Source: Octopus sinensis
Lineage: Eukaryota
DNA length: 64,000 nt
Reading direction: 5' to 3'
Assembly: GCF_006345805.1 (NCBI RefSeq)
Contig: NC_042998.1
Coordinates: 27,900,001-27,964,000 of the forward strand
The translations under genes were made by a program, and so were the position numbers. Positions 13,287-39,651 of this stretch are shown here, one piece after another. Under the pieces are notes generated by a model, which was given only the letters and a program-made list of their open reading frames with translations, did no database searches and was not told where the DNA came from. Positions within the stretch are counted from its first letter, which is position 1. Every line of letters begins with the position of its first letter.

Positions 13287-13819
13287 GTTGAATTTGTATG
13301 AAAAACTTTCTCTTATTTAACTTATGAAAACGAACTTACGTATTTTTACGACAATAAACATGACTGTGAAAATTATATACCTTTTTGCACTGTTTAGTGT
13401 AATCTATAATTAGGATAAATATTTCAACATATTTTCGATAATCTCTAAATATATATGTAATGTCTTCAAAATCTTTTCCATACGATTCGAAGTTTAATAA
13501 TACTTTTCAGCCTCAATTTTATCTGCCACGATTTTATTGCTCAGGTCTTATCATTATTCTCAGCCGAACTGCTTTCTCTATAAAACATTGCAAGTAAGGT
13601 TATTTTTATGTTCCTCCACTTAAAGGTTTCTCTAATAATAGCTAGCAGGACTTTGACGCTGTCCTGACAAAAGCTATGCTGGTAGAATATATGTACCTTT
13701 TAAAAATTGTATAACAGGTCTATCGTTTCATGCAGTTCTATGTTTAAGAGATGAGACTTATGTACGTTATTTAGATTATTAACATTTGACGGATATTTGT
13801 CATCATCTTGTTTGTTGTT

Positions 13820-13865
13820 AACACAACCTTTCGGCTGTTATACCCTCCAGCCTTCATCAGGTGTC
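13820..13865 (-). ncRNA. Minimal type I hammerhead ribozyme motif
   Basis: GACAC-CTGATGA-A-GGCTG(loop)CAGCC-GAAA-GGTT-GTGTT. The stem III palindrome is mutated in this arm. Confidence 0.55.
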
Positions 13866-13919
13866 TTGGGGAAATTTCGAACCTGAGTTCTCATTACTAA
13901 GGTATTTTTCGACGCCCAC

Positions 13920-13990
13920 AGGCATATGGCGTAGTGGTTAAGTGCGCAGACTACTAACCCCAAGATTGCGAGTGCGATTCCAGGCAGTGA

Positions 13991-13994
<4 letters not shown>
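13920..13994 (+). mobile_element. Short tRNA-derived SINE-like segment
   Basis: A-box TGGCGTAGTGG and degenerate B-box GAGTGCGATTCC, followed by (TAA)n. Confidence 0.55.
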
Positions 13995-14043
<49 letters not shown>

Positions 14044-14116
14044 TAATAATAATAATAATTATAGCAACATCGAAAAATACCTTAGGAATGAGAATCCAGG
14101 TTCAAAATTTCCCCAA

Positions 14117-14162
14117 AACACCTGATGAAGGATGGAGAGTATATCAGCTGAAACGTTGTGTT
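14117..14162 (+). ncRNA. Minimal type I hammerhead ribozyme motif
   Basis: AACAC-CTGATGA-A-GGATG..CAGCT-GAAACGTT-GTGTT, with palindromic AACGTT. Stem II is partly mutated. Confidence 0.55.
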
Positions 14163-14893
14163 AACAATAAACAAGATAAGGACAAATATCCGTCAAATGT
14201 AAATAATGTAAATAAGATGTATCGTTTGTTGGCAGATTACTTACAAAATGGTAATGAGGAACATTTTAATGTTTCCTAGAAATGGCCCGTGAATAGATTG
14301 AAAACGGGGTTTATTTTGATTTCACTTCAGATGATATATATTATAATATGCAAAGCCTTTTCTTGTGCCATACTGATTTACAGCCACGTTGCTTACATTA
14401 AAGTAAACTGTTACTGGAGTTTCTCAAACATATTTTTTGAGAATATGTCTAAGAAACTCCAGTAACGTTTTATGTGCGTGCGTACTTAGGCGTGCGAATT
14501 TGCGTATCTAAGTGTATACGTATGTCCATTTACGTGTATGGGTTTTTATGGGACGTTATTTTATCAAAATAATAGTTTAAGTAACACTTAAATGTTTGAC
14601 TGATGCGACACCTATACAATTTTATTCGTCTATTATTTACGATATCACTACAAAATATTTTTCAACAAATATTTAAAGATTTGGGAATAATTTTAAATAG
14701 CATAAGTTTAATTTCATAAACCCTCCGAGGTTATATTCATACTCATGATAGTGTTTTCCACTTTACACGTGATTCGTTTGTTTACTGATCACAAAGCACC
14801 AAAAGCTAATTTCTATTGATCCCATTTAGGTTTGGCAGTTTATCGATTTAGTAACGACGTATGTTGACAAGCAATTTCATAGTCAGAAGGAAA

Positions 14894-15302
14894 TCTTTAT
14901 ATATAAAAGAGAGGTTCTGTGTCTGTCTCTTACCATTTAGATTCCTAACTACTCCCACATTTTGCGGTGCAGTTTAACCAAAACCGGGTATCTTATAGTC
15001 GGGATTCATATCAAATCCTTCTGGGTATTAGCGTGCGTCTACGATGAGTCTACGATGAGTCTACGATTTAAAAAAAAGTTTACCATCATTTTTTTCCATT
15101 TAAATGCATTTTTTCACTATTATATAAAGGAAGTAACTCTCTAAAAATGTCTACGATGCGTCAACGATTTAAAAAAAAATTACCATAATTTTTTTCCCAT
15201 TTATAATGCATTTTTTTGCTATTTTTTTGGCTATAACTCTCTAAAAATGCTTATATAGTTATTTCCCTTACAAACCCGAGCAACGCCGGGCGATACTGCT
15301 AG
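14894..15302 (+). mobile_element. Non-autonomous Helitron
   Basis: A|TC start, CCCGAGCAACGCCGGG hairpin, CTAG|T end, and an internal duplication. Homologous to 8203-8597. Confidence 0.8.
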
Positions 15303-16262
15303 TTCATTATAAAATAACTAATTCGCATTCAGGCACATGGTAGCAATATGCTAATGGCCTCCTTCAAATGAATATCCTAATAACATACTTTTGAGGATCC
15401 GCAATAAACTGTCAATACACATTATCGTCTTCGTCCTCGACGAATTATCCTCTCTCTTCACCCTCTCTCACCATATGTGTGCGTATGTGCGTGTGATAAT
15501 GGGGATATCTCCTATGGAAGATGACATAGACTTACTACTTATGCATGCGTGTCCCTTTTAACGGATGTTGAATAGGGATTACTTTAGATTGTTTCCGGAT
15601 TGATAGGAAATGCACAGCGGAGAACAGAAAATTTATATAACAAAGCAGGTAAATTACTGCTGTATATGAATGGGTGGGAGTGAAAAATTGGCAACAGATG
15701 ATGAATTGAAATTTGATATTTAATAGGTCTTACACGATGTTTGAGATGAGAGACCAGCAAAATTCATTTTAGTATGGCAAATGTGTGTGCAACTAGTTAA
15801 AGAACCCAACATATGATTTTGTGCTGGTGTATTTCATATAGCTTGTTCGGTTATAGTTAGTATACGTCTTTTAAACAAGTTAATCGATTTCGCGAAAATA
15901 TAATCGAGTTAAGCGTAAGAAAGAATCAACAGAAGATAAGGGTGTAACTACAAACAAGATAAGGAGCGGCAAAACTTCTCAAGCATAGATACATCTCATA
16001 GAGACATGTAGAAAGACTGGCGGATCTCCATCACAATTAAAGAAAACCAAGAAATACAACGTATGTCCACAACACTTTAATACGTACAGCTGTAAAGGAA
16101 CTTATTGTTGGAGTTGTGTTGAACATTTAGAAATATTATATTGAATACACGAGTGTATAAGAGTTTTGTCTTTTCAACAGGATTAGTATTATAATATACT
16201 TCTTAAATCCTTATGTCAATCTTTCAAGAATTTCATACTTCATCTTCAAGAGAACATCTTGT

Positions 16263-16340
16263 CATGCAGATGACACCGCCCTGTTCAGTAACTCGATCGA
16301 CCAGCTCAAGGACTCACTGACCATATACAATAAGCATTTT
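16263..16340 (+). pseudogene. Possible LINE reverse transcriptase fragment
   Basis: Translates HADDTALFSNSIDQLKDSL, resembling the (Y/F)ADD catalytic region. Very short. Confidence 0.3.
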
Positions 16341-17199
16341 CCTTACGAACACTACCGGTTTCCTAATTCTATGATTTTCAAAATGTAGTTCGCGATGGTG
16401 AGACTGGGATGTATCAAGGCTTTGTATCGACTCTAATTAAAGTTGAACATTTGGTAATTTTTATAGAATGGATATTGATTCAGTTTGCTACAGTTTCCTA
16501 TTCACAGGAGGTTAGAGGAACATGTGGCTGTGTGAAAGTAGTTGCAGCAAAATTCAAGACTGTGCTATGTCAGTAAAAGGCATCATCTGATAGCATGAAT
16601 GACAGATGTGTATATTAGGTCATGTGACACCGTAGACAATAACTGCATCAAATATAATGGCTGTGTTAGTCCAAAATTATGTCATGTGATAGTATGAACA
16701 AAGAGAGTTGTTAGAGTAACTGTGAATGGAGAAGAATTTCTCGAACGTATGCGAATATGCGTTTGTATAGTTGTTAAACTTTTTTGTCTGTGGATATGAT
16801 TACAACATTGTAATATCTCAGTCTGATATGTTGTAGTTCCTTCGGTTTGGGATTTATTTTTTGATAAATATATTTCCTTTAATTCGTTTTTATATTTGGT
16901 TTGCAATATTCTTGATATGAATTCAAAATGTTGAAACATCTTGTGGTGCCTCGGGACGGTCTTTACCCCAATAATAAGCCACTCACTGGTTCAATATCAT
17001 TCCTTTGTTGTTAGTCAATTACAAATTGATCATTTTGTTTAACGCGCGGGTTAAATAATCGGCTGGTTATATTTTCTTTAATTTCCCGCATTTACTTTGT
17101 GGGTTTGTCAGATGAAATACAGGCAACATTTCATCTCATGATTATAATAGTAAATGTTGCCATTGCAGTAGGAAAACCATTTTCCTTCAATTATTAATA

Positions 17200-17765
17200 T
17201 TGGGTTGTCCGGAAAGTTCTTGCCGATTTATAGTAGCTTACCTTTCGACTTATTTTAGAACATAGTTGAGTCCATAAAATAAGATTTGACTACACCTCCA
17301 TTTAGAGCACAGTTTAAGCTATCTTTTCGTGGAAGAAGGTTTATGTTCCTATAACCTGTGTTAATTCTGTAACCCTTTAAAATGGAAGATAAGGAAGTTC
17401 ATTTTCGGCACTTGATGCTTTGAGAACCAGACAAAAATTGCTGTAGCTCGGCTGGGATGTGTTACCTCACCTTCTATATTCAACTGATATTGCTCCTTCG
17501 GATTTCCGCTTATTCAGGTCTCTGCAGAATAGTCTTAATGGTAAAAATTTCAATTCCTTGGTTGACATAAAAAGACACCTTGAAGAATTCTTTGTCATGA
17601 AACCACCTCAATTCTGGGAAGAGGGTATTTTCAAGTTAAAGGAAAGATGGAGATGCATTGTGCAACAAAATGGTTCATATTTGGCTGATTAAAAATGTAA
17701 TGGCAAATATTTATTGACCTTTTTCTTTCCTTTAAAAATCAGCACGAACTTTCCGGACAACCCAA
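17200..17765 (+). mobile_element. Internally deleted mariner transposon
   Basis: TIRs TTGGGTTGTCCGGAAAGTTC and GAACTTTCCGGACAACCCAA with TA TSD. The C-terminal remnant HLLYSTDIAPSDFRLFRSL matches the YSPDLAPSD motif. Confidence 0.9.
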
Positions 17766-19109: not shown

Positions 19110-19140
<31 letters not shown>

Positions 19141-19146
19141 TATATA

Positions 19147-19205
<59 letters not shown>

Positions 19206-19375: not shown

Positions 19376-19417
<42 letters not shown>

Positions 19418-20194: not shown

Positions 20195-20257
<63 letters not shown>

Positions 20258-21124: not shown

Positions 21125-21167
21125 CTGTAAGCGGATTTGGTAGACGGAAACTGAAAGAAGCTCGTCC

Positions 21168-22009: not shown

Positions 22010-22037
<28 letters not shown>

Positions 22038-22044
<7 letters not shown>

Positions 22045-25000
22045 CAACAATTGAGGGTAAAATTAATTAATTAATTAATCAATTTCACCAAGTATTCAGT
22101 ATGCAAAGGGACCATTTAAGGCAAATTCAATTATTACATTATATAAAAGGGCTTAGTAAAATAAATTACTTTGCCGCATACTGAACTCGTTAGAAATAGC
22201 AGCTAAAAAAACTATTTCTAACACTTAAAGAAAACCTCTCTCATATAGTGCTTGCTCAATTCAACCCAAGAAAGTATGAGGGTAGAGACATTAAAAAATC
22301 AAATGCAAAGGTTATTTGAGTACGTACGTTTCAAGATTAGCCAAATTCGACCCTTCTCTCATCAGCTCAGAATGCCCTTGTTTGAGTTTGAAAACACTGA
22401 AAATGGGAGCATACCCTTTCGGCTTGTTATCGCTTCTGAAGATCTGTCCCAACTAACAGTGCTAGCTAACTCAAATATGCAAGAGAAAAATTTCTGTTCT
22501 CCCCTTTCCACCAGCGTGGGTTAAAATCAGCAAACACTATCTTTTTTTCGGTAAAATCCAAGACAAATAAGTAGAGAGAGATGAATTATAATTTCAACAA
22601 TTGAGGGTAAAATTAATTAATTAATTAATCAATTTCACCAAGTATTCAGTATGCAAAGGGACCATTTAAGGCAAATCAAATTATTACATTATATAAAAGG
22701 GCTTAGTAAAATAAATTACTTTGCCGCATAATGAACTCGTTAGAAATAGCAGCTAAAAAACTATTTCTAACACTTAAAGAAAACTCTCTCATATAGTGCT
22801 TGCTCAATTCAACCCAAGAAAGTATGAGGGTAGAGACATTAAAAAATCAAATGCAAAGGTTATTTGAGTACGTACGTTTCAAGATTAGCCAAATTCGACC
22901 CTTCTCTCATCAGCTCAGAATGCCCTGTTTGAGTTTGAAAACACTGAAAATGGGAGCATACCCTTTCGGCTTGTTATCGCTTCTGAAGATCTGTTCCCAA
23001 CTAACAGTGCTAGCTAACTCAAATATGCAAGAGAAAAATTTCTGTTCTCCCCTTTCCACCAGCGTGGGTTAAAATCAGCAAACACTATCTTTTTTTCGGT
23101 AAAATCCAAGACAAATAAGTAGAGAGAGATGAATATAATTTCAACAATTGAGGGTAAAATTAATTAATTAATAATCAATTTCACCAAGTATTCAGTATGC
23201 AAAGGACCATTTAAGGCAAATTCAAATTATTACATTATATAAAAGGGCTTAGTAAAATAAATTACTTTGCCGCATACTGAACTCGTTAGAAATAGCAGCT
23301 AAAAAACTATTTCTAACACTTAAAGAAAACCTCTCTCATATAGTGCTTGCTCAATTCAACCCAAGAAAGTATGAGGGTAGAGACATTAAAAAATCAAATG
23401 CAAAGGTTATTTGAGTACGTACGTTTCAAGATTAGCCAAATTCGACCCTTCTCTCATCAGCTCAGAATGCCCTTGTTTGAGTTTGAAAACACTGAAAATG
23501 GGAGCATACCCTTTCGGCTTGTTATCGCTTCTGAAGATCTGTTCCCAACTAACAGTGCTAGCTAACTCAAATATGCAAGAGAAAATTTTCTGTTCTCCCC
23601 TTTCCACCAGCGTGGGTTAAAATCAGCAAACACTATCTTTTTTTCGGTAAAATCCAAGACAAATAAGTAGAGAGAGATGAATTATAATTTCAACAATTGA
23701 GGGTAAAATTAATTAATTAATTAATCAATTTCACCAAGTATTCAGTATGCAAAGGGACCATTTAAGGCAAATTCAAATTATTACATTATATAAAAGGGCT
23801 TAGTAAAATAAATTACTTTGCCGCATAATGAACTCGTTAGAAATAGCAGCTAAAAAAACTATTTCTAACACTTAAAGAAAACCTCTCTCATATAGTGCTT
23901 GCTCAATTCAACCCAAGAAAGTATGAGGGTAGAGACATTAAAAAATCAAATGCAAAGGTTATTTGAGTACGTACGTTTCAAGATTAGCCAAATTCGACCC
24001 TTCTCTCATCAGCCAGAATGCCCTTGTTTGAGTTTGAAAACACTGAAAATGGAGCATACCCTTTCGGCTTGTTATCGCTTCTGAAGATCTGTTCCCAACT
24101 AACAGTGCTAGCTAACTCAATATGCAAGAGAAAAATTTCTGTCTCCCCTTTCCACCAGCGTGGGTTAAAATCAGCAAACACTATCTTTTTTCGGTAAAAT
24201 CCAAGACAAATAAGTAGAGAGAGATGAATTATAATTTCAACAATTGAGGGTAAAATTAATTAATTAATTAATCAATTTCACCAAGTATTCAGTATGCAAA
24301 GGGACCATTTAAGGCAAATTCAAATTATTACATTATATAAAAGGGCTTAGTAAAATAAATTACTTTGCCGCATACTGAACTCGTTAGAAATAGCAGCTAA
24401 AAAACTATTTCTAACACTTAAAGAAAACCTCTCTCATATAGTGCTGCTCAATCAACCAAGAAAGTATGAGGGTAGAGACATTAAAAAATCAAATGCAAAG
24501 GTTATTTGAGTACGTACGTTTCAAGATTAGCCAAATTCGACCCTTCTCTCATCAGCTCAGAATGCCCTTGTTTGAGTTTGAAAACACTGAAAATGGGAGC
24601 ATACCCTTTCGGCTTGTTATCGCTTCTGAAGATCTGTTCCCAACTAACAGTGCTAGCTAACTCAAATATGCAAGAGAAAAATTTCTGTTCTCCCCTTTCC
24701 ACCAGCGTGGGTTAAAATCAGCAAAACCACTACTTTTTTTCGGTAAAATCCAAGACAAATAAGTAGAGAGAGATGAATTATAATTTCAACAATTGAGGGT
24801 AAAATTAATAATTAATTAATCAATTTCACCAAGTATTCAGTATGCAAAGGGACCATTTAAGGCAAATTCAAATTATTACATTATATAAAAGGGTTAGTAA
24901 AATAAATTACTTTGCCGCATACTGAACTCGTTAGAAATAGCAGCTAAAAAAACTATTTCTAACACTTAAAGAAAACCTCTCTCATATAGTGCTTGCTCAA

Positions 25001-28000
25001 TTCAACCCAAGAAAGTATGAGGGTAGAGACATTAAAAAATCAAATGCAAAGGTTATTTGAGTACGTACGTTTCAAGATTAGCCAAATTCGACCCTTCTCT
25101 CATCAGCTCAGAATGCCCTTGTTTGAGTTTGAAAACACTGAAAATGGGGGCATACCCTTTCGGCTTGTTATCGCTTCTGAAGATCTGTTCCCAACTAACA
25201 GTGCTAGCTAACTCAAATATGCAAGAGAAAAATTTCTGTTCTCCCCTTTCCACCAGCGTGGGTTAAAATCAGCAAACACTATCTTTTTTTCGGTAAAATC
25301 CAAGACAATAAGTAGAGAGAGATGAATTATAATTTCAACAATTGAGGGTAAAATTAATTAATTAATTAATCAATTTCACCAAGTATTCAGTATGCAAAGG
25401 GACCATTTAAGGCAATTCAAATTATTACATTATATAAAAGGGCTTAGTAAAATAAATACTTTGCCGCATACTGAACTCGTTAGAAATAGCAGCTAAAAAA
25501 ACTATTTCTAACACTTAAAGAAAACCTCTCACATATAGTGCTTGCTCAATTCAACCAAGAAAGTATGAGGGTAGAGACATTAAAAAATCAAATGCAAAGG
25601 TTATTTGAGTACGTACGTTTCAAGATTAGCCAAATTCGACCCTTCTCTCATCAGCTCAGAATGCCCTTGTTTGAGTTTGAAAACACTGAAAATGGGAGCA
25701 TACCCTTTCGGCTTGTTATCGCTTCTGAAGATCTGTTCCCAACTAACAGTGCTAGCTAACTCAAATATGCAAGAGAAAATTTTCTGTTCTCCCCTTTCCA
25801 CCAGCGTGGGTTAAAATCAGCAAACACTATCTTTTTTTCGGTAAAATCCAAGACAAATAAGTAGAGAGAGATGAATTATAATTTCAACAATTGAGGGTAA
25901 AATTAATTAATTAATTAATCAATTTCACCAAGTATTCAGTATGCAAAGGGACCATTTAAGGCAAATTCAAATTATTACATTATATAAAAGGGCTTAGTAA
26001 AATAAATTATTACTTTGCCGCATACTGAACTCGTTAGAAATAGCAGCTAAAAAAACTATTTCTAACACTTAAAGAAAACCTCTCACATATAGTGCTTGCT
26101 CAATTCAACCCAAGAAAGTATGAGGGTAGGTAGAGACATTAAAAAATCAATGCAAAGGTATTTGAGTACGTACGTTTCAAGATTAGCCAAATTCGACCCT
26201 TCTCTCATCAGCTCAGAATGCCCTTGTTTGAGTTTGAAAACACTGAAAATGGGAGCATACCCTTTCGGCTTGTTATCGCTTCTGAAGATCTGTTCCCAAC
26301 TAACAGTGCTAGCTAACTCAAATATGCAAGAGAAAAATTTCTGTTCTCCCCTTTCCACCAGCGTGGGTTAAAATCAGCAAACACTATCTTTTTTTCGGTA
26401 AAATCCAAGACAAATAAGTAGAGAGAGATGAAATAATTTCAACAATTGAGGGTAAAATTAATTAATTAATTAATCAATTTCACCAAGTATTCAGTATGCA
26501 AAGGGACCATTTAAGGCAAATTCAAATATTACATTATATAAAAGGGCTTAGTAAAATAAATTACTTTGCGCATACTACTGAACTCGTTAGAAATAGCAGC
26601 TAAAAAAACTATTTCTAACACTTAAAGAAAACCTCTCTCATATAGTGCTTGCTCAATTCAACCCAAGAAAGTATGAGGGTAGAGACATTAAAAAATCAAA
26701 TGCAAAGGTTATTTGAGTACGTACGTTTCAAGATTAGCCAAATTCGACCCTTCTCTCATCAGCTCAGAATGCCCTTGTTTGAGTTTGAAAACACTGAAAA
26801 TGGGAGCATACCCTTCGGCTTGTTATCGCTTCTGAAGATCTGTTCCCAACTAACAGTGCTAGCTAACTCAAATATGCAAGAGAAAAATTTCTGTTCTCCC
26901 CTTTCCACCAGCGTGGGTTAAAATCAGCAAACACTATCTTTTTTTCGGTAAAATCCAAGACAAATAAGTAGAGAGAGATGAATTATAATTTCAACAATGA
27001 GGGTAAAATTAATTAATTAATTAATCAATTTCACCAAGTATTCAGTATGCAAAGGGACCATTTAAGGCAAATTCAAATTATTACATTATATAAAAGGGCT
27101 TAGTAAAATAAATTACTTTGCCGCATACTGAACTCGTTAGAAATCAGCAGCTAAAAAACTATTTCTAACACTTAAAGAAAACCTCTCTCATATAGTGCTT
27201 GCTCAATTCAACCCAAGAAAGTATGAGGGTAGAGACATTAAAAAATCAAATGCAAAGGTTATTTGAGTTGTACGTTTTCAAGATTAGCCAAATTCGACCC
27301 TTCTCTCATCAGCTCAGAATGCCCTTGTTTGAGTTTGAAAACACTGAAAATGGGAGCATACCCTTTCGGCTTGTTATCGCTTCTGAAGATCTGTTCCAAC
27401 TAACAGTGCTAGCTAACTCAAATATGCAAGAGAAAAATTCTGTTCTCCCCTTCCACCAGCGTGGGTTAAAATCAGCAAACACTATCTTTTTTTCGGTAAA
27501 ATCCAAGACAAATAAGTAGAGAGAGATGAATTATAATTTCAACAATTGAGGGTAAAATTAATTAATTAATTAATCAATTTCACCAAGTATTCAGTATGCA
27601 AAGGGACCATTTTTAGGCAAATTCAAATTATTACATTATATAAAAGGGCTTAGTAAAATAAATTACTTTGCCGCATACTGAACTCGTTAGAAATAGCAGC
27701 TAAAAAAACTATTTCTAACACTTAAAGAAAACTCTCTCATATAGTGCTTGCTCAATTCAACCCAAGAAAGTATGAGGGTAGAGACATTAAAAAATCAAAT
27801 GCAAAGGTTATTGAGTACGTACCGTTTCAAGATTAGCCAAATTCGACCCTTCTCTCATCTCAGCTCAGAATGCCCTTGTTTGAGTTTGAAAACACTGAAA
27901 ATGGGAGCATACCCTTTCGGCTTGTTATCGCTTCTGAAGATCTGTTCCCAACTAACAGTGCTAGCTAACTCAAATATGCAAGAGAAAAATTTTCTGTTCT

Positions 28001-31000
28001 CCCCTTTCCACCAGCGTGGGTTAAAATCAGCAAACACTATCTTTTTTTCGGTAAAATCCAAGACAAATAAGTAGAGAGAGATGAATTATAATTTCAACAA
28101 TTGAGGGTAAAATTAATTAATTAATTAATCAATTTCACCAAGTATTCAGTATGCAAAGGGACCATTTAAGGCAAATTCAAATTATTACATTATATAAAAG
28201 GGCTTAGTAAAATAAATTACTTTGCCGCATAATGAACTCGTTAGAAATAGCAGCTAAAAAAACTATTTCTAACACTTAAAGAAAACCTCTCTCATATAGT
28301 GCTTGCTCAATTCAACCCAAGAAAGTATGAGGGTAGAGACATTAAAAAATCAAATGCAAAGGTTATTTGAGTACGTACGTTTCAAGATTAGCCAAATTCG
28401 ACCCTTCTCTCATCAGCTCAGAATGCCCTTGTTTGAGTTTGAAAACACTGAAAATGGGAGCATACCCTTTCGGCTTGTTATCGCTTCTGAAGATCTGTTC
28501 CCAACTAACAGTGCTAGCTAACTCAAATATGCAAGAGAAAAATTTTCTGTTCTCCCCTTTCCACCAGCGTGGGTTAAAATCAGCAAACACTATCTTTTTT
28601 TCGGTAAAATCCAAGACAAATAAGTAAGAGAGAGATGAATTATAATTTCAACAATTGAGGGTAAAATTAATTAATTAATTAATCAATTTCACCAAGTATT
28701 CAGTATGCAAAGGGACCATTTAAGGCAAATTCAAATTATTACATTATATAAAAGGGCTTAGTAAAATAAATTACTTTGCCGCATACTGAACTCGTTAGAA
28801 ATAGCAGCTAAAAAAACTATTTCTAACACTTAAAGAAAACCTCTCTCATATAGTGCTTGCTCAATTCAACCCAAGAAAGTATGAGGGTAGAGACATTAAA
28901 AAATCAAATGCAAAGGTTATTTGAGTACGTACGTTTCAAGATTAGCCAAATTCGACCCTTCTCTCATCAGCTCAGAATGCCCTTGTTTGAGTTTGAAAAC
29001 ACTGAAAATGGGAGCATACCCTTTCGGCTTGTTATCGCTTCTGAAGATCTGTTCCCAACTAACAGTGCTAGCTAACTCAAATATGCAAGAGAAAAATTTC
29101 TGTTCTCCCCTTTCCACCAGCGTGGGTTAAAATCAGCAAAACTATCTTTTTTTCGGTAAAATCCAAGACAAATAAGTAGAGAGAGATGAATTATAATTTC
29201 AACAATTGAGGGTAAAATTAATTAATTAATTAATATAATCAATTTCACCAAGTATTCAGTATGCAAAGGGACCATTTAAGGCAAATTCAAATTATTACAT
29301 TATATAAAAGGGCTTAGTAAAATAAATTACTTTGCCGCATACTGAACTCGTTAGAAATAGCAGCTAAAAAAACTATTTCTAACACTTAAAGAAAACCTCT
29401 CTCATATAGTGCTTGCTCAATTCAACCCAAGAAAGTATGAGGGTAGAGACATTAAAAAATCAAATGCAAAGGTTATTTGAGTACGTACGTTTCAAGATTA
29501 GCCAAATTCGACCCTCTCTCATCAGCTCAGAATGCCTTGTTTGAGTTTGAAAACACTGAAAATGGGGGCATACCCTTTCGGCTTGTTATCGCTTCTGAAG
29601 ATCTGTTCCCAACTAACAGTGCTAGCTAACTCAAATATGCAAGAGAAAAATTTCTGTTCTCCCCTTTCCACCAGCGTGGGTTAAAATCAGCAAACACTAT
29701 CTTTTTTTCGGTAAAATCCAAGACAAATAAGTAGAGAGAGATGAATTATAATTTCAACAATTGAGGGTAAAATTAATTAATTAATTAATCAATTTCACCA
29801 AGTATTCAGTATGCAAAGGGACCATTTAAGGCAAATTCAAATTATTACATTATATAAAAGGGCTTAGTAAAATAAATTACTTTGCCGCATACTGAACTCG
29901 TTAGAAATAGCAGCTAAAAAAACTATTTCTAACACTTAAAGAAAACCTCTCACATATAGTGCTTGCTCAATTCAACCCAAGAAAGTATGAGGGTAGAGAC
30001 ATTAAAAAATCAAATGCAAAGGTTATTTGAGTACGTACGTTTCAAGATTAGCCAAATTCGACCCTTCTCTCATCAGCTCAGAATGCCCTTGTTTGAGTTT
30101 GAAAACACTGAAAATGGGAGCATACCCTTTCGGCTTGTTATCGCTTCTGAAGATCTGTTCCCAACTAACAGTGCTAGCTAACTCAAATATGCAAGAGAAA
30201 ATTTTCTGTTCTCCCCTTTCCACCAGCGTGGGTTAAAATCAGCAAACACTATCTTTTTTTCGGTAAAATCCAAGACAAATAAGTAGAGAGAGATGAATTA
30301 ATAATTTCAATTTCAACAATTGAGGGTAAAATTAATTAATTAATTAATCAATTTCACCAAGTATTCAGTATGCAAAGGGACCATTTAAGGCAAATTCAAA
30401 TTATTACATTATATAAAAGGGCTTAGTAAAATAAATTACTTTGCCGCATACTGAACTCGTTAGAAATAGCAGCTAAAAAAACTATTTCTAACACTTAAAG
30501 AAAACCTCTCACATATAGTGCTTGCTCAATTCAACCCAAGAAAGTATGAGGGTAGAGACATTAAAAAATCAAATGCAAAGGTTATTTGAGTACGTACGTT
30601 TCAAGATTAGCCAAATTCGACCCCCTTCTCTCATCAGCTCAGAATGCCCTTGTTTGAGTTTGAAAACACTGAAAATGGGAGCATACCCTTTCGGCTTGTT
30701 ATCGCTTCTGAAGATCTGTTCCCAACTAACAGTGCTAGCTAACTCAAATATGCAGAGAAAAATTTCTGTTCTCCCCTTTCCACCAGCGTGGGTTAAAATC
30801 AGCAAAACTATCTTTTTTTCGGTAAAATCCAAGACAATAAGTAGAGAGAGATGAATTAATTTCAACAATTGAGGGTAAAATTAATTAATTAATTAATCAA
30901 TTTCACCAAGTATTCAGTATGCAAAGGGACCATTTAAGGCAAATTCAAATTATTACATTATATAAAAGGGCTTAGTAAAAAAAATTACTTTGCCGCATAC

Positions 31001-34000
31001 TGAACTCGTTAGAAATAGCAGCTAAAAAAACTATTTCTAACACTTAAAGAAAACCTCTCTCATATAGTGCTTGCTCAATTCAACCCAAGAAAGTATGAGG
31101 GTAGAGACATTAAAAAATCAAATGCAAAGGTTATTTGAGTACGTACGTTTCAAGATTAGCCAAATTCGACCCTTCTCTCATCAGCTCAGAATGCCCTTGT
31201 TTGAGTTTGAAAACACTGAAAATGGGAGCATACCCTTCGGCTTGTTATCGCTTCTGAAGATCTGTTCCCAACTAACAGTGCTAGCTAACTCAATATGCAA
31301 GAGAAAAATTTCTGTTCTCCCCTTTCCACCAGCGTGGGTTAAAATCAGCAAACACTATCTTTTTTTCGGTAAAATCCAAGACAAATAAGTAGAGAGAGAT
31401 GAATTATAATTTCAACAATTGAGGGTAAAATTAATTAATTAATTAATCAATTTCACCAAGTATTCAGTATGCAAAGGGACCATTTAAGGCAAATTCAAAT
31501 TATTACATTATATAAAAGGGCTTAGTAAAATAAATTACTTTGCCGCATACTGAACTCGTTAGAAATAGCAGCTAAAAAAACTATTTCTAACACTTAAAGA
31601 AAACCTCTCTCATATAGTGCTTGCTCAATTCAACCCAAGAAAGTATGAGGGTAGAGACATTAAAAAATCAAATGCAAAGGTTATTTGAGTACGTACGTTT
31701 CAAGATTAGCCAAATTCGACCCTTCTCTCATCAGCTCAGAATGCCCTTGTTTGAGTTTGAAAACACTGAAAATGGGAGCATACCCTTTCGGCTTGTTATC
31801 GCTTCTGAAGATCTGTTCCAACTAACAGTGCTAGCTAACTCAAATATGCAAGAGAAAATTTCTGTTCTCCCCTTTCCACCAGCGTGGGTTAAAATCAGCA
31901 AACACTATCTTTTTTTCGGTAAAATCCAAGACAAATAAGTAGAGAGAGATGAATTATAATTTCAACAATTGAGGGTAAAATTAATTAATTAATTAATCAA
32001 TTTCACCAAGTATTCAGTATGCAAGGGACCATTTAAGGCAAATTCAAATTATTACATTATATAAAAGGGCTTAGTAAAATAAATTACTTTGCCGCATACT
32101 GAACTCGTTAGAAATAGCAGCTAAAAAAACTATTTCTAACACTTAAAGAAAACCTCTCCATATAGTGCTTGCTCAATTCAACCCAAGAAAGTATGAGGGT
32201 AGAGACATTAAAAAATCAAATGCAAAGGTTATTTGAGTACGTACGTTTCAAGATTAGCCAAATTCGACCCTTCTCTCATCAGCTCAGAATGCCCTTGTTT
32301 GAGTTTGAAAACACTGAAAATGGGAGCATACCCTTTCGGCTTGTTATCGCTTCTGAAGATCTGTTCCCAACTAACAGTGCTAGCTAACTCAAATATGCAA
32401 GAGAAAATTTCTGTTCTCCCCTTTCCACCAGCGTGGGTTAAAATCAGCAAACACTATCTTTTTTTCGGTAAAATCCAAGACAAATAAGTAGAGAGAGATG
32501 AATTATAATTTCAACAATTGAGGGTAAAATTAATTAATTAATTAATCAATTTCACCAAGTATTCAGTATGCAAAGGGACCATTTAAGGCAAATTCAAATT
32601 ATTACATTATATAAAAGGGCTTAGTAAAATAAATTACTTTGCCGCATACTGAACTCGTTAGAAATAGCAGCTAAAAAAACTATTTCTAACACTTAAAGAA
32701 AACCTCTCACATATAGTGCTTGCTCAATTCAACCAAGAAAGTATGAGGGTAGAGACATTAAAAAATCAAATGCAAAGGTTATTTGAGTACGTACGTTTCA
32801 AGATTAGCCAAATTCGACCCTTCTCTCATCAGCTCAGAATGCCCTTGTTTGAGTTTGAAAACACCTGAAAATGGGAGCATACCCTTTCGGCTTGTATCGC
32901 TTCTGAAGATCTGTTCCCAACTAACAGTGCTAGCTAACTCAAATATGCAAGAGAAAAATTTCTGTTCTCCCCTTCCACCAGCGTGGGTTAAAATCAGCAA
33001 ACACTATCTTTTTTTCGGTAAAATCCAAGACAAAAAGTAGAGAGAGATGAATTATAATTTCAACAATTGAGGGTAAAATTAATTAATTAATTAATCAATT
33101 TCACCAAGTATTCAGTATGCAAAGGGACCATTTAAGGCAAATTCAAATTATTACATTATATAAAAGGGCTTAGTAAAATAAATTACTTTGCCGCATACTG
33201 AACTCGTTAGAAATAGCAGCTAAAAAAACTATTTCTAACACTTAAAGAAAACCTCTCTCATATAGTGCTTGCTCAATTCAACCCAAGAAAGTATGAGGGT
33301 AGAGACATTAAAAAATCAAATGCAACGGTTATTTGAGTACGTACGTTTCAAGATTAGCCAAATTCGACCCTTCTCTCATCAGCTCAGAATGCCCTTGTTT
33401 GAGTTTGAAAACACTGAAAATGGGAGCATACCCTTTCGGCTTGTTATTGCTTCTGAAGATCTGTTCCCAACTAACAGTGCTAGCTAACTCAAATATGCAA
33501 GAGAAAAATTTCTGTTCTTCCCCTTCCACCAGCGTGGGCTAAAATCAGCAAACACTATCTTTTTTTCGGTAAAATCCAAGACAAATAAGTAGAGAGAGAT
33601 GAATTATAATTTCAACAATTGAGGGTAAAATTAATTAATTAATTAATCAATTTCACCAAGTATTCAGTATGCAAAGGGACCATTTAAGGCAAATTCAAAT
33701 TATTACATTATATAAAAGGGCTTAGTAAAATAAATTACTTTGCCGCATACTGAACTCGTTAGAAATAGCAGCTAAAAAAACTATTTCTAACACTTAAAGA
33801 AAACCTCTCTCATATAGTGCTTGCTCAATTCAACCCAAGAAAGTATGAGGGTGGTAGAGACATTAAAAAATCAAATGCAAAGGGTATTTGAGTACGTACG
33901 TTTCAAGATTAGCCAAATTCGACCCTTCTCTCATCAGCTCAGAATGCCCTTGTTTGAGTTTGAAAACACTGAAAATGGGAGCATACCTTTCGGCTTGTTA

Positions 34001-35557
34001 TCGCTTCTGAAGATCTGTTCCAACTAACAGTGCTAGCTAACTCAAATATGCAAGAGAAAAATTTCTGTTCTCCCCTTTCCACCAGCGTGGGTTAAAATCA
34101 GCAAACACTATCTTTTTTTCGGTAAAATCCAAGACAAATAAGTAGAGAGAGATGAATTATAATTTCAACAATTGAGGGTAAAATTAATTAATTAATTAAT
34201 CAATTTCACCAAGTATTCAGTATGCAAAGGGACCATTTAAGGCAAATTCAAATTATTACATTATATAAAAGGGCTTAGTAAAATAAATTACTTTGCCGCA
34301 TACTGAACTCGTTAGAAATAGCAGCTAAAAAAACTATTTCTAACACTTAAAGAAAACCTCTCTCATATAGTGCTTGCTCAATTCAACCCAAGAAAGTATG
34401 AGGGTAGAGACATTAAAAAATCAAATGCAAAGGTTATTTGAGTACGTACGTTTCAAGATTAGCCAAATTCGACCCTTCTCTCATCAGCTCAGAATGCCCT
34501 TGTTTGAGTTTGAAAACACTGAAAATGGGAGCATACCCTTTCGGCTTGTTATCGCTTCTGAAGATCTGTTCCCAACTAACAGTGCTAGCTAACTCAAATA
34601 TGCAAGAGAAAAATTTCTGTTCTCCCCTTTCCACCAGCGTGGGTTAAAATCAGCAAACACTATCTTTTTTTCGGTAAAATCCAAGACAAATAAGTAGAGA
34701 GAGATGAATTATAATTTCAACAATTGAGGGTAAAATTAATTAATTAATTAATCAATTTCACCAAGTATTCAGTATGCAAAGGGACCATTTAAGGCAAATT
34801 CAAATTATTACATTATATAAAAGGGCTTAGTAAAATAAATTACTTTGCCGCATACTGAACTCGTTAGAAATAGCAGCTAAAAAAACTATTTCTAACACTT
34901 AAAGAAAACCTCTCTCATATAGTGCTTGCTCAATTCAACCCAAGAAAGTATGAGGGTAGAGACATAAAAAATCAAATGCAAAGGTTATTTGAGTACGTAC
35001 GTTTCAAGATTAGCCAAATTCGACCTTCTCTCATCAGCTCAGAATGCCCTTGTTTGAGTTTGAAAACACTGAAAATGGGAGCATACCCTTTCGGCTTGTT
35101 ATCGCTTCTGAAGATCTGTTCCAACTAACAGTGCTAGCTAACTCAAATATGCAAGAGAAAATTTTCTGTTCTCCCCTTTCCACCAGCGTGGGTTAAAATC
35201 AGCAAACACTATCTTTTTTTCGGTAAAATCCAAGACAAATAAGTAGAGAGAGAGAGAGATGAATTATAATTTCAACAATTGAGGGTAAAATAATTAATTA
35301 ATTAATCAATTTCACCAAGTATTCAGTATGCAAAGGGACATTTAAGGCAAATTCAAATTATTACATTATATAAAAGGGCTTAGTAAAATAAATTACTTTG
35401 CCGCATACTGAACTCGTTAGAAATAGCAGCTAAAAAAACTATTTCTAACACTTAAAGAAAACCTCTCTCATATAGTGCTTGCTCAATTCAACCCAAGAAA
35501 GTATGAGGGTAGAGACATTAAAAAATCAAATGCAAAGGTTATTTGAGTACGTACGTT
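22038..35557. repeat. Tandem array of a ~551-bp HHR-containing unit (24 full units plus a partial one)
   Basis: A landmark recurs at 22252, 22800, 23347 ... 34374, ~34925 and 35479. Units are nearly identical and differ mostly by 1-nt indels. The left flank is (TA)n. Confidence 0.97.
22314..22373 (-). ncRNA. Type I hammerhead ribozyme (unit 1, repeated in each unit)
   Basis: Minus strand ATTCTGAG-CTGATGA-GAGA...TCTT-GAAA-CGTACG-TA|CTCAAAT. Stem I TGAG/CTCA extends across one bulge, stem II is GAGA/TCTT plus GGTCG/TGGCT, stem III is the palindrome ACGTACGT, and the triplet is GUA. Confidence 0.85.
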
Positions 35558-35955
35558 GGTGGAAAGGGGAGAACAGAAATTTTACGCTGGTGGAAAGGGG
35601 AGAACAGAAATTTTTCTCTTGCATATTTGAGTTAGCTAGCACTGTTAGTTGGGAACAGATCTTCAGAAGCGATAACAAGCCGAAAGGGTATGCTCCATTT
35701 TCAGTGTTTTCAAACTCAAACAAGGGCATTCTGAGCTGATGATGAGAAGGGTCGAATTTGGCTAATCTTGAAACGTACGTACTCAAATACCTTTGCATTT
35801 GATTTTTTAATGTCTCTACCCTCATACTTTCTTGGGTTGAATTGAGCAAGCACTATATGAGAGAGGTTTTCTTTAAGTGTTAGAAATAGTTTTTTTAGCT
35901 GCTATTTCTAACGAGTTCAGTATGCGGCAAAGTAATTTATTTTACTAAGCCCTTT

Positions 35956-35962
<7 letters not shown>
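35557..35962 (-). repeat. Inverted partial unit capping the array
   Basis: Reverse complement of the unit segment from ATTATATAAAAGGG to CCCCTTTCCACCA. Ends in (TA)n. Confidence 0.95.
35728..35788 (+). ncRNA. Hammerhead ribozyme in the inverted unit
   Basis: ATTCTGAG-CTGATGA-TGAGA..TCTT-GAAACGTACGTA-CTCAAAT, with one extra T after the core. Confidence 0.7.
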
Positions 35963-35990
<28 letters not shown>

Positions 35991-35995
<5 letters not shown>

Positions 35996-36726
35996 GAGGG
36001 TACTACTATTAGTAGATACCAACACGCTAAGAGGGACCAATGCGGTCAAAACTACTAAAAATAAACAAAATATTACCGAATGCAAAACTTCAAAAACACA
36101 TCATTTTAAAAAGGAATTCAGTTACATATCACATGTGATTTCGCATTTAATGCAGAATATGCATTTCATGTTCGTCAGTGCAACAAACTCAAGGGATATA
36201 AGAAAAAACATAACATTACAAACTCGATAGCCAACCGTAGAATTCATCGTAGCATGTACTAATGTTTATCCTTACATATCTATGAAAATGGCGGGCTTTT
36301 TCGCAATGCATTTCGGTACCAAATTGCCTAGTCGGAATAAAAATTCAGTATTGAACTATTCCGGTGAAAAATATAAATTAACAATTGAGGATAAAATCTT
36401 TAAAAGAAATTATCAGTAGTCAGCGTGAAAAACCTCGTAAGAGAAAAAATCCGTAAATTCTTCCTCTTTGAAAATATTCATTTATATTATATGAGGGTAC
36501 TACTATTCGTAGATGCCAACACGCTAAGAGGGACCAATGCGGTCAAAACTACTAGTATTTTTGACCGCATTGGTCCCTCTTAGCCTGTTGGTATCTACTA
36601 ATAGTAGTACCCTCATTATAATATAAATGAATATTTTCAAAGAGGAAGAATTTACGGATTTTTTCTCTTACGAGGTTTTTCACGCTGACTACTGATAATT
36701 TCTTTTAAAGATTTTATCCTCAATTG

Positions 36727-36730
<4 letters not shown>
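35991..36730. mobile_element. Second HHR element: ~497-bp unit (1.1 copies) plus an inverted arm, between (TA)n tracts
   Basis: ATGAGGGTACTACTATT recurs at 35994 and 36491. Fold-back arms at 36378-36553 and 36554-36730. Confidence 0.85.
36121..36184 (-). ncRNA. Type I hammerhead ribozyme
   Basis: GTTGCA-CTGACGA-ACAT..ATGCA(tattc)TGCAT..ATGC-GAAA-TCACATGTGA-TA|TGTAAC. Stem III is palindromic, and there is an A-C mismatch at the base of stem II. Confidence 0.7.
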
Positions 36731-36760
<30 letters not shown>

Positions 36761-36762
<2 letters not shown>

Positions 36763-36960
36763 GGAGAAAACACATAAATGTGAAACAAGGTGGAAAAAAG
36801 AGTACTCAAATACCAGGGGTAGAGTAATATGCTTTATTTAAAAGCACCAGAAATTCAACAAAACCTGTTACTCGGAGTTTCACGTTCCCGTACGTCGGAC
36901 AGTTTTGTTAAAATTTTAACAAAACTGTCCGACGTATTTTCCGCTGCTTTTAAATAAAGT
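36761..36960. mobile_element. Third (TA)n-flanked fold-back element with a degenerate HHR
   Basis: Minus strand 36857-36909 reads AACAAAACTGT-CCGACGT-ACG(GGAA)CGT-GAAA-CTCCGAG-TA-ACAGGTTTTGTT. Perfect 46-bp palindrome at 36891-36936. Confidence 0.6.
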
Positions 36961-36990
36961 ATATATATATATATAATATATAATATATAT

Positions 36991-37052
<62 letters not shown>

Positions 37053-37493
37053 GTATAAGATGGACTCTGTAGTAGTGAATGACAATTGAGAGTTTAATGA
37101 AATGAAGCGTTAATCATGTCCTATGGCTGGTGTGTGTATATATAGATAGATATATATATATAACGACCATTCTAGTTTGTTTTCGTTCGGTTCCCTTGTA
37201 TATCTCCACTGTCATTTTTTTGGTTTCCAACTTTGACCAACCATAATTCTTAAATTTTATTTTAGAATTTATAGGCGTAACTGTCTTTAAAGACTCATAT
37301 TGTCGTTGAATGCTCGAATTGAGGAGTAGATAGACAGCCAAAATAGGGGCTTTTTTTCTGTGTTAACCTATCCTAATTTCCATTTTTTCTCGTTGTTTAC
37401 GTGTTTCACTCTCTTTTCCTTATTTGTTTACGTATTTCACGTTATTTGTGCCGTTGGTGACGTTATGTACTCATATATGCATATATATGTATG

Positions 37494-37536
<43 letters not shown>

Positions 37537-37570
37537 TATTATTCGTTATATATATGCATATATATATATA

Positions 37571-37960
37571 GGCGCAGGAGTGGCTGTGTGGTAAGTAGCT
37601 TGCTAACCAACCACATGGTTCCGGGTTCAGTCCCACTGCGTCGCATCTTGGGCAAGTGTCTTCTGCTATAGACCCGGGCCGACCAATGCCTTGTGAGTGG
37701 ATTTGGTAGACGGAAACTGAAAGAAGCCTGTCGTATATATGTGTATATATATATATATGTGTGTATGTGTATGTGTTTGTCCCCCTAGCATTGCTTGACA
37801 GCCGATGCTGGTGTGTTTACGTCCCCGTCACTTAGTGGTTCGGCAAAAGAGACCGATAGAATAAGTACTGGGCTTACAAAGAATAAGTCCCGGGGTCGAT
37901 TTGCTCGACTAAAAGGCGGTGCTCCTGCATGGCCGCACTCAAATGACTGAAACAGGTAAA
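37571..37960 (+). mobile_element. SINE family A
   Basis: Full-length match, preceded by (TA)n. Confidence 0.9.
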
Positions 37961-38741
37961 AAAAAAATTAATATTGTATATTCAGAAATCAATACTGTGG
38001 TGATTCTGATGAGCTAGCTTTCTATAACTGAATACATTTGTATTGTATAATTCGTAACAAGCCTTTTAGTGGAGACATGTAAACATAACTTATTTTACAT
38101 TGAAGCTATAATTATATAAAGAATATATGAAACGGCCGTTATCCTGAGAATGACATGTGGTTAAATAAAACTATTCAGTTCTCATACCTCTTGCCTTGTT
38201 ACGGTTTACACACACACACACACACACGCATGTCTGTGGTACTTTCATGAAGACCAAGTATGAAAAAGTTTCTTATCTAGAAAAAAGTATAAAGATTTGC
38301 TACGAAATTGCCTCACATAATCACGAATTAGCAGATATATGAATTTTTATACACACGGAAAAAGTTTTAGAGATGGTAATATAAATATATACTTATTTTT
38401 TTTTTACAGGCGTGTTCTTATATAATGCAGCATCAAATGCTTAGAAATTTGGTGCGAATCTTTTCACTGTCTACTCTCTTATAGGTCTTTAGTTCATACA
38501 TAAATAATCACTTTTTCATCAAAATATTTGATCATATTTCAGCTCAAATTACGTTTTATGATGTTATATGTCTTCATCTATAATAAGACGGTCTAAACGA
38601 ATTTCATCTCATATAGCATTCAAATATGAATGGAATGGTAGGTATTGATCACTGCAGATCAAAAATTCGCGTACAGTTTAGTATATTCTTCTATTCTTTA
38701 TATTTTTTATTCTTTATATATATATATTATATATATATATA

Positions 38742-38824
38742 GGCGTTGGAGTGGCTGTGGATAAGTAGCTTGCTTACCAACCACATAGTTCCGGATTCAG
38801 TCCCCTTGCGTGGCACCTTCTACT
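38742..38824 (+). mobile_element. SINE family A head fragment
   Basis: 5' tRNA-like portion only. Confidence 0.7.
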
Positions 38825-38851
38825 ATATGTGTGTGTATATGTGCATACATT

Positions 38852-38934
<83 letters not shown>

Positions 38935-39160
38935 ATTTATAAATAAGAATAATATCGATATTATCAAGTGGTCAGCATGGGAAAGAATACCATACAAAGG
39001 TAATAATTTTTTACAACTAAAAATAAGGGTGTCTGAGAGACACCACCATGCCGAAATAGCAGTCAAATCCCTGACTCTAAAAACCACCTTAACTGTTCAT
39101 ATCGCACCATGAGATAAGACAGAGGGACACAATTGACTAGCACAAAGATATTACTGAATA

Positions 39161-39219
39161 ATTCAAGATCCTAGATTTCCAGCTTTGCTTTAAATAAGCT
39201 TTGCCGTCATCAGTTGAAT
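39161..39219 (-). ncRNA. Type I hammerhead ribozyme (intact-looking)
   Basis: ATTCAA-CTGATGA-CGGC aaa GCTT(attta)AAGC aaa GCTG-GAAA-TCTAGGA-TC|TTGAAT, with an AUC triplet. Confidence 0.8.
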
Positions 39220-39430
39220 ATATCAGAGCACATAAATACACATATATATATATGCAGAACAAACGTTATACTTACATATACGAACGTCCATACATACATA
39301 TATATGCACGAATGTACAAGGCCAGTTTAAATTGCCCGCCAAACACTTGATAATATTGATATTTAATTATCGATATGTAAGTATAACGTTTGTTCTGCAT
39401 ATATATATTTGTATTTATGTGCTCTGATGT

Positions 39431-39489
39431 ATTCAACTGATGACGGCAAAGCTTATTTGAAGCAAAGCTAGAAACCCAGGATCTTGAAT
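39431..39489 (+). ncRNA. Hammerhead ribozyme (decayed copy in the right arm)
   Basis: Same motif as 39161-39219, with mutations at the base of stem II and in stem III. Confidence 0.6.
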
Positions 39490-39651
39490 TATTCAGTAAT
39501 ATCTTTTTGCTAGTCTATTTTGTCCCTCTGTCTTATCTCATGGTACGATATGAACATTTAAGGTGGTTTTTAGTGTCAGGGATTTGACTGATATTTCGGC
39601 ATGGTGGTGTCTCTCAGACACCCTTATTTTTAGTTATATATATCTATGGAA

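What the first reader, a model, noticed from the sequence alone, without database searches (positions are those of the whole stretch)
13767..39635. Five unrelated HHR elements share one architecture: head-to-head with both 3' ends outward
Seen: at 13.8, 22.0-36.0, 36.0-36.7, 36.8-37.0 and 39.0-39.6 kb the left arm has the HHR sense on the minus strand and the right arm is an inverted copy. Four of the five end in or near (TA)n, and three abut each other separated only by (TA)n. Established: Penelope-like elements carry HHRs and form partial-tandem and inverted-repeat insertions. Inference: a common mechanism in which both ends of a break in (TA)n prime reverse transcription and the two cDNAs join in the middle, using an RT encoded elsewhere. 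This points to a diverse, possibly undescribed guild of microsatellite-targeting retrozymes.
Basis: partly seen in the sequence, partly recalled or inferred. Interest (0 to 1): 0.8.

Follow-up and report, generated by a model that had tools for sequence, protein, structure and literature searches.

The report
Back-to-back Penelope-type ribozyme insertions
Two of these five stretches are the cut-short ends of Penelope-type jumping genes and three are protein-free ~500-base repeats likely moved by such elements; each sits as a back-to-back pair with one long and one short end, a known layout that likely forms when both ends of a cut chromosome start copying the same RNA at two different fixed sites.

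Summary
The layout is real: all five are head-to-head, 3' ends outward. Across 1.83 Mb of this genome, 70 hammerhead (HHR) hits had an inverted copy upstream and none had one only downstream. It is the published Penelope-like element (PLE) signature, not a new guild. E1 (13.7 kb) is the 3' end of a Poseidon-type RT/endonuclease element, with target duplications, not in (TA)n. E4 (36.8 kb) is the 3' end of a Hydra-type element. E2, E3 and E5 are ORF-less ~490-550-nt units resembling non-LTR retrozymes, in (TA)n; no helper was found, and E3's HHR is doubtful. Only 4 of 14 unbiased copies were inverted. New detail: 92 of 99 scorable inversions pair one long (tailed) end with one short end; both arms carry the same haplotype (10 of 10 informative E2 arrays); and in 13 of 22 E1 cases neither arm contains the other. 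This favours twin priming at two fixed RT start sites on one RNA over the published fold-back model, and suggests rolling-circle copying for E2. Interest 0.45.

The parts
13733..13912 (-). E1 left arm, long (tailed) end at 13733; HHR copy with broken helix III
13913..14216 (+). E1 right arm, short end: tRNA-like head (13913-13996; resemblance by eye, ARAGORN finds nothing), (AAT)n, minimal type I HHR; 3' UTR/pLTR of a Poseidon-type PLE
14117..14162 (+). Minimal type I HHR, palindromic loop-less helix III
13721..13728 (.). Candidate 8-bp target-site duplication, partner at 14220-14227
22011..22040 (.). (TA)n at E2 long end
22041..35557 (-). E2 left arm: about 24.5 tandem 550-bp units, long end at 22041; 21 units pass the strict HHR scan (first at 22317-22369)
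35558..35583 (.). 26-nt insert at the E2 junction, a duplicate of the start of the right arm
35584..35966 (+). E2 right arm, short end; HHR at 35732-35785 with a 3-nt insertion
35956..35993 (.). (TA)n between E2 and E3
35990..36554 (-). E3 left arm (short end), 1.1 units of 496 bp; HHR core boxes near 36178, helix I out of register
36553..36737 (+). E3 right arm (long end), no HHR
36730..36760 (.). (TA)n between E3 and E4
36761..36912 (-). E4 left arm (long end), 3' end of a Hydra-type PLE; HHR core mutated in this copy
36916..36959 (+). E4 right arm (short end) with an internal deletion through the HHR; (TA)n follows at 36960-37040
38862..38932 (.). (TA)n at E5 long end
38933..39353 (-). E5 left arm (long end), part of a ~487-nt unit; intact type I HHR at 39161-39219
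39371..39638 (+). E5 right arm (short end), mutated HHR

Best explanation
E1 and E4 are 5'-truncated ends of Poseidon-type and Hydra-type Penelope-like elements, and E2, E3 and E5 are ORF-less hammerhead units likely moved by such elements; the head-to-head pairs likely form by twin priming at two fixed start sites on one RNA. Steps: (1) a GIY-YIG endonuclease cuts both target strands with a stagger (E1 target duplications shown; the cut inferred; both-strand cutting shown in vitro for another PLE). (2) One 3' end primes at the distal site (long end, with tail), the other at the proximal site 45-120 nt upstream (short end) (one-long-one-short pairing shown; priming inferred). (3) Both cDNAs run towards the RNA 5' end on the same RNA, or on two RNAs from one source locus (shared variants shown; one molecule inferred). 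(4) The two 5'-truncated cDNAs are joined, mostly with 0-10 nt of overlap or insert (junctions shown; repair route inferred). For E2 the template is likely a circular 550-nt RNA copied round several times (per-insertion haplotypes shown; circle untested). The HHR would serve RNA processing, not the insertion step (inferred).
For: Orientation: 70 upstream, 0 downstream-only, 1 both, 90 none among 161 HHR hits; 4 outward, 0 inward, 10 single in unbiased 600 kb. Parents: E1 follows the ORF end in 19 of 20 loci, RVT_1 E 1.2e-9; E4 follows its ORF end in 22 of 30 loci. Pairing: 92 long+short, 7 same-type, 12 unscorable of 111 rows; 58 of 65 without E4, p 2e-11 against a 50:50 choice. E1 flank matches of 7 nt or more in 15 of 24, shuffled mean 1.8, max 6. 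Same haplotype on both arms in 10 of 10 informative E2 arrays (never above 8 in 200,000 permutations). Minority bases shared within a locus: E1 13 vs 4.3, E3 7 vs 0.3, E4 7 vs 1.6, E5 27 vs 2.7. Short arm reaches further 5' than the tailed arm in 13 of 22 E1 loci; tail-only long arms at L147, B07, L353, L360, L101. Long arm stops within 12 nt of the short site in 7 of 39 E2/E3/E5 rows, 1.9 expected. Circular folding z -6.5, -2.8, -5.3. PMC11167929: a Poseidon protein cuts and extends both strands from two internal start sites that bound the tail.
Against: No helper found for E2, E3, E5. No RNA evidence obtained. Shared variants also fit two RNAs from one source, or later gene conversion; one locus supplies 14 of E5's 27 and one 4 of E4's 7. 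The excess of longer short arms in E1 is not significant (13 vs 6, p 0.08), and E2's long arms are longer in 13 of 15. The 12-nt window was set after seeing examples. E4's first 30 loci were found with a query spanning the inversion. L067 is a true short+short pair. PMC11167929 saw no difference in start site between strands. The window's junctions were not bridged in independent contigs.
Confidence: 0.65

Rival explanations
1. Self-priming or fold-back: one cDNA (or an antisense template, as proposed in PMC3846280) folds back and is copied, and the endonuclease trims the ends, leaving the tail on one side.
For: Explains shared haplotypes. E4 junctions are near-palindromic and cluster just upstream of the HHR; 3 of 22 E1 loci are symmetric and 6 nested; both end sites of E2, E3 and E5 lie in TA-rich sequence.
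Against: A fold-back copy must lie within its template. In 13 of 22 E1 loci, and at L353 and L360 (E4), each arm holds sequence the other lacks. Target duplications flank whole inverted E1 units. Internal RT starts at the tail ends are shown in vitro (PMC11167929).
Confidence: 0.12
2. Two-ended priming by an RT dimer on two separate RNA molecules from the same active source locus, one subunit using each start site.
For: Explains long+short pairing, target duplications, non-nested arms and most haplotype sharing; a dimer is predicted for the Poseidon protein (PMC11167929); arms overlap in sequence, which on one RNA needs strand displacement.
Against: An ORF-less element has no cis preference to bring two same-haplotype RNAs together when at least 10 haplotypes exist; tail-only arms that stop at the short site are not predicted.
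Confidence: 0.17
3. The inversions or arrays arise after insertion (slippage, unequal exchange, gene conversion, hairpin repair in (TA)n), or are long-read assembly chimeras.
For: The window's 24.5-unit array is more than twice the next longest of 18 (5.5 kb) and holds minor variants in some units, so part may be later expansion or mis-assembly; no independent contig was listed across the window's junctions.
Against: Arms differ by 3-13% in E1, E3, E5; flanks are unique; ends fall at two fixed sites; no inward pairs; opposite-strand joints of the E4 family stand in contigs of runs X1 and X2.
Confidence: 0.06

Closest known systems
Canonical EN+ Penelope-like element insertions (PMC3846280; PMC8557442; PMC4209133)
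   Same: Inverted 5'-truncated copy at the 5' end, head-to-head most frequent, tail at one end, target duplications, type I or minimal HHRs, HHR pairs on opposite strands 100-700 bp apart, pLTRs mobilised in trans.
   Different: Tails here are about 45-120 nt, not 30-40; the one-long-one-short rule, shared haplotypes and non-nested arms are counted here and were not in the passages read.
Penelope/Poseidon clade (PAc, PMC11167929)
   Same: E1 parent: RT then C-terminal GIY-YIG-type domain with two cysteines in the core, no zinc-finger linker, minimal HHR, AT-rich non-microsatellite targets.
   Different: A tRNA-like piece and (AAT)n sit in the 3' UTR; no intact ORF seen; no tree built.
Hydra clade PLEs (PMC8557442)
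   Same: E4 parent: DKT motif, CxCX5C linker, no CCHH, CxxC and CxH motifs, HHR, (TA)n targets.
   Different: 1.2-kb AT-rich 3' UTR; one subfamily has C at HHR core position 4, another the usual U; RWK motif not seen.
Non-LTR retrozymes (PMC7229834; bioRxiv 10.64898/2026.07.22.740005)
   Same: ORF-less tandem units, low GC (0.32-0.34), type I HHR per unit, strongly self-paired as circles, co-existing with PLEs.
   Different: Units of 487-550 nt against 170-400 nt; central inversion with fixed long and short ends and (TA)n targeting, not found in those papers' text; expression untested.
L1 twin priming (Ostertag and Kazazian 2001; title seen in a reference list, mechanism recalled)
   Same: Both target ends prime; 3'-outward arms joined at their 5' ends inside a target duplication.
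   Different: Here the second start site is fixed and the arms usually overlap in sequence.

Membership tests
EN+ PLE insertion | Head-to-head inverted 5'-truncated copy | tested here: met
   outward only
EN+ PLE insertion | Tail at one end only | tested here: met
   92 of 99 scorable rows long+short
EN+ PLE insertion | Variable target-site duplication | tested here: met
   E1: 15 of 24 vs 1.8; not discernible in (TA)n for E2-E5
Penelope/Poseidon (E1 parent) | RT followed by C-terminal GIY-YIG with CCHH, no CX2-5CxxC linker | tested here: met
   RVT_1 E 1.2e-9; motifs read in L248-L250; Pfam did not call the endonuclease; homologues carry PF00078 and PF26215
Penelope/Poseidon (E1 parent) | Placement in the clade by RT phylogeny | not tested
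   no reference set; no tree built
Hydra clade (E4 parent) | DKT, CxCX5C linker, no CCHH, CxxC and CxH, HHR, (TA)n target | tested here: met
   frames of L366, L371, L380, L391 against PMC8557442; Pfam 0 families
Hydra clade (E4 parent) | N-terminal RWK motif; phylogenetic placement | tested here: inconclusive
   RWK not seen in the one broken N-terminal frame (L366); no tree
Non-LTR retrozyme (E2, E3, E5) | Tandem ORF-less units, low GC | tested here: met
   E5 mostly one unit or a little more
Non-LTR retrozyme (E2, E5) | Type I HHR in each unit | tested here: met
   21 of about 24 E2 units, E5 left arm; folds
Non-LTR retrozyme (E3) | Type I HHR in each unit | tested here: inconclusive
   core boxes in 29 of 30 copies but helix I off by 3 nt; not filed as a member
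Non-LTR retrozyme (E2, E3, E5) | Monomer of about 170-400 nt | tested here: not met
   487-550 nt; hence 'retrozyme-like'
Non-LTR retrozyme (E2, E3, E5) | Expressed, self-cleaving, circular RNA | not testable with these tools
   only circular folding energy
Non-LTR retrozyme (E1, E4) | Non-autonomous tandem unit | tested here: not met
   both continue upstream into their own RT ORF; E4 tandem-junction pattern 0 matches

The most novel reading that the evidence does not exclude
Animal retrozyme circles are integrated by PLE proteins through rolling-circle twin priming: both ends of one cut prime on a single circular RNA at two fixed sites and run round it in parallel, giving an inverted array of one haplotype with a tail at one end. 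The same two-site rule would explain the tail and inverted structure of PLE insertions generally, and E2, E3, E5 and related families would share a short end motif read by one unidentified helper.
Probability: 0.4. Interest if true: 0.68.

Novelty: new variant of a known kind. Interest (0 to 1): 0.45.

Why it matters
How PLEs make tandem/inverted insertions with a one-sided tail is named as open in PMC8557442, and the link between animal retrozymes and PLEs has rested on shared motifs and distribution. These copies give countable rules (one long plus one short end, one haplotype per insertion, non-nested arms) that separate twin priming from fold-back and can be tested with a purified PLE protein and barcoded RNAs. 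The layout itself and the classes of element are known, which caps the interest.

Tried and rejected
Rfam at gathering and E-value thresholds: no hammerhead family. ARAGORN: no tRNA in the window. E4 as a free ~165-nt circle: rejected (junction pattern 0 matches; it continues into a 1.2-kb UTR and ORF). E1 as a stand-alone tRNA SINE with an HHR: rejected. Helper for E2/E3/E5: two Neptune-like families (L266 with an open 781-aa frame, RVT_1 and GIY-YIG hits; L235) end in their own HHR variants and (TA)n but share no long sequence with E2-E5; one E2 and one E5 locus of 56 and 40 lay near a PLE frame and E3 none of 36. Only one 2.2-kb piece of the further Hydra-type subfamilies could be read; it ended in an E4-type HHR. 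Sequencing runs: no RNA holder listed; contigs of four runs did not bridge the window's junctions in the rows shown; empty sites were not tested. E2 5' ends near the predicted HHR cut (unit position 271): a few (271, 268, 261, 282, 283, 287), noticed after the fact and not counted as evidence. Isolated HHRs fold no better than shuffles (z -0.7 to 1.2). Earlier findings: none returned. Rows set aside: L241's second junction (older copy 730 bp away), L083's inward row (two adjacent insertions), L066's 'both' row (adjacent insertion), duplicate loci.
Full report
Setting. The window is G000:C2:27900001-27964000 of a 2.72-Gb animal genome. Its SINEs look octopus-like (recalled, from no call); the nearest named homologue of one protein below is from Argonauta hians, 47% identical. 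I call the five elements E1 (13.7 kb), E2 (22.0-36.0 kb), E3, E4 and E5.

Observation. Self-comparison shows the inverted arms: E1 146 bp at 89.7%, E2 385 bp at 98.7% after about 24.5 tandem 550-bp units, E3 96.7%, E5 86.9% over 640 bp. A strict type I scan finds 21 HHRs in E2's units and one in E5's left arm, all on the minus strand, plus one chance-like hit at 20.8 kb; a relaxed scan adds E1's and E2's right arms on the plus strand. In 600 kb taken at fixed round positions on 12 chromosomes the scan gave 10 hits against 1,0,0,0,0 in five shuffles. E3 has the core boxes in 29 of 30 copies but helix I is 3 nt out of register. Neither window arm of E4 has an intact core. Rfam finds none of them.

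Families and orientation. Each element is a dispersed family (1488-2197 first-look candidates, 32-40 scored). The unbiased 600 kb held 14 copies: 4 outward pairs, 0 inward, 10 single. Over all 1.83 Mb then held, 161 distinct HHR hits in 20 clusters had an inverted copy upstream in 70 cases, downstream only in 0, both in 1, none in 90 (hits, not independent elements, and enriched for the five families). Within 20 nt of E2-E5 ends (TA)4 stood in 187 of 228 cases, against 1 of 35 for E1 long ends and 4.2% of random 20-mers.

Parents. E1 follows the end of an ORF in 19 of 20 loci found with that ORF end; upstream lie RT frames (RVT_1, E 1.2e-9) and a GIY-YIG-type C-terminus with two cysteines in its core (Pfam gave 0 families for that part; 7 longer homologues carry PF26215, 6 of them PF00078). 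This is the Penelope/Poseidon layout. E4 continues upstream into a 1.2-kb AT-rich UTR and follows an ORF end on the same strand in 22 of 30 loci; the frames show DKT, CxCX5C, no CCHH, CxxC and CxH, the marks given for the Hydra clade. E2, E3 and E5 are ORF-less units of 550, 496 and 487 nt, GC 0.32-0.34, folding as circles at z -6.5, -2.8 and -5.3 against 40 shuffles each. No helper was found, but the genome holds (TA)n-ending Neptune-like families, one with an open 781-aa frame. E2 and E3 share a 27-30-nt long-end motif, and a short CCT(C/T)A(T/A)T-like word lies before most end sites of E2, E3 and E5 (by eye).

Two ends. Every family has two 3' end sites about 45-120 nt apart. Of 18 E2 arrays (the window and 17 of the sites listed, picked after seeing that list) 15 have a central inversion, all outward and all with one long and one short end; one more has a 31-nt inverted short arm, and two have no inversion. 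Script counts over all families: 92 long+short, 7 same-type, 12 unscorable of 111 rows; without E4, whose first 30 loci came from a query spanning the inversion, 58 of 65 (p 2e-11 against 50:50). Of the 7, L141, L148 and L022 are long+short on inspection, L133 and L214 join pieces over 1.3 kb apart, L070 ends 19 nt early, and L067 is a true short+short pair. Inverted E1 units have flank matches of 7-14 nt in 15 of 24 loci (shuffled mean 1.8, max 6; two may be partly element-derived).

One template. Each E2 array carries its own set of substitutions across its units, and the set is the same on both arms in all 10 arrays where both arms cover a diagnostic site, with 10 different haplotypes (at most 8 matches in 200,000 permutations). 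In the other families arms of one locus share minority bases more than arms of different loci: E1 13 vs 4.3 (18 pairs), E3 7 vs 0.3 (17), E4 7 vs 1.6 (30), E5 27 vs 2.7 (9; 14 from one locus). A fold-back copy must lie within its template, yet the untailed arm reaches further 5' than the tailed arm in 13 of 22 E1 loci (6 nested, 3 ties), and several long arms are the tail alone (L147, B07, L353, L360, L101). Long arms stop within 12 nt of the short site in 7 of 39 E2/E3/E5 rows, 1.9 expected (p 0.003, window set after seeing examples). Against: the 13:6 excess is not significant (p 0.08), E2's long arms are the longer in 13 of 15, and E4 junctions cluster at one near-palindromic spot (19 different centre sequences, the commonest in 9).

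Artefact check. Contigs of four runs from four studies cover all 30 bins of 35450-36955 and show opposite-strand joints of the E4 family in X1 and X2, but no listed piece bridges the window's own junctions (15 of 32 joints shown). Diverged arms, unique flanks, target duplications and fixed one-sided tails argue against fold-back read chimeras. The 13.5-kb array length is unverified.

Literature. [quoted passage not shown] PMC8557442 (passages): same layout across clades, (TA)n bias, Hydra marks, mechanism called open; its supplements, not seen, may already list these families. PMC4209133 (outline and first half): minimal HHRs, pairs on opposite strands 100-700 bp apart, circles proposed as templates for more-than-unit copying. 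PMC11167929 (first half): both strands cut and extended, two internal start sites bound the tail, dimer predicted, HHR not needed. PMC7229834 (passages) and bioRxiv 10.64898/2026.07.22.740005 (first fifth and passages): non-LTR retrozymes; 'inverted' occurs 0 times and once (a reference). L1 twin priming is recalled; its title was seen in PMC3649969's references. Searches for retrozyme+inverted+head-to-head+insertion gave 0 papers; Penelope-like+twin priming gave 3 listings, none about PLE insertion by title; searches showed no paper stating the pairing rule by title or abstract start. Subscription papers and repeat databases were not searched.

Verdict. The layout is real and known. E1 and E4 are new members of known PLE clades by motif. 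E2 and E5, and E3 with a doubtful ribozyme, are larger retrozyme-like units bearing the PLE insertion signature. The added value is mechanistic: two fixed start sites used one per DNA end, probably on one RNA (0.65), with a rolling-circle version for E2 (0.4). Novelty: new variant of a known kind; interest 0.45.

Noticed in passing
window 56938-57067: A further, 85% identical E2-family fragment (short end) inside (TA)n; an older E2 subfamily with a conserved HHR and the long+short inverted layout also stands in L022:463-1408.
   Followed up: partly
window 13913-14063: The E1 parent's 3' UTR holds a tRNA-like piece followed by (AAT)n; many truncated copies start there and look like a SINE.
   Followed up: partly
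L266:106-2448 (G000:C1:207475426-207478647): Young Neptune-like PLE family with an open 781-aa frame, a 3' UTR with repeated ATTGG and TGACGT words, a variant HHR core (TTGATAA) and a (TA)n end.
   Followed up: partly
L235:195-2850: Second Neptune-like family, C-rich, with a variant HHR core (TTGAAGA) and a (TA)n end; 16320 first-look candidates.
   Followed up: partly
L066:200-700 and L273:85-150: Other HHR or repeat families carry a hairpin and end motif like E2's tail, a possible shared recognition signal for one helper.
   Followed up: no
L312:6500-8200, L273:205-363: More HHR-bearing palindromes of unrelated families clustered in the same (TA)n tracts; 20 HHR clusters in 1.83 Mb.
   Followed up: partly
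window 42432-42493: Interstitial (TTAGGG)n-like tract.
   Followed up: no
window 4123-4882, 40143-40560, 41593-42016, 61279-61592: Dispersed tandem ~184-bp SINE-like repeats in both orientations; they account for most long inverted repeats.
   Followed up: no
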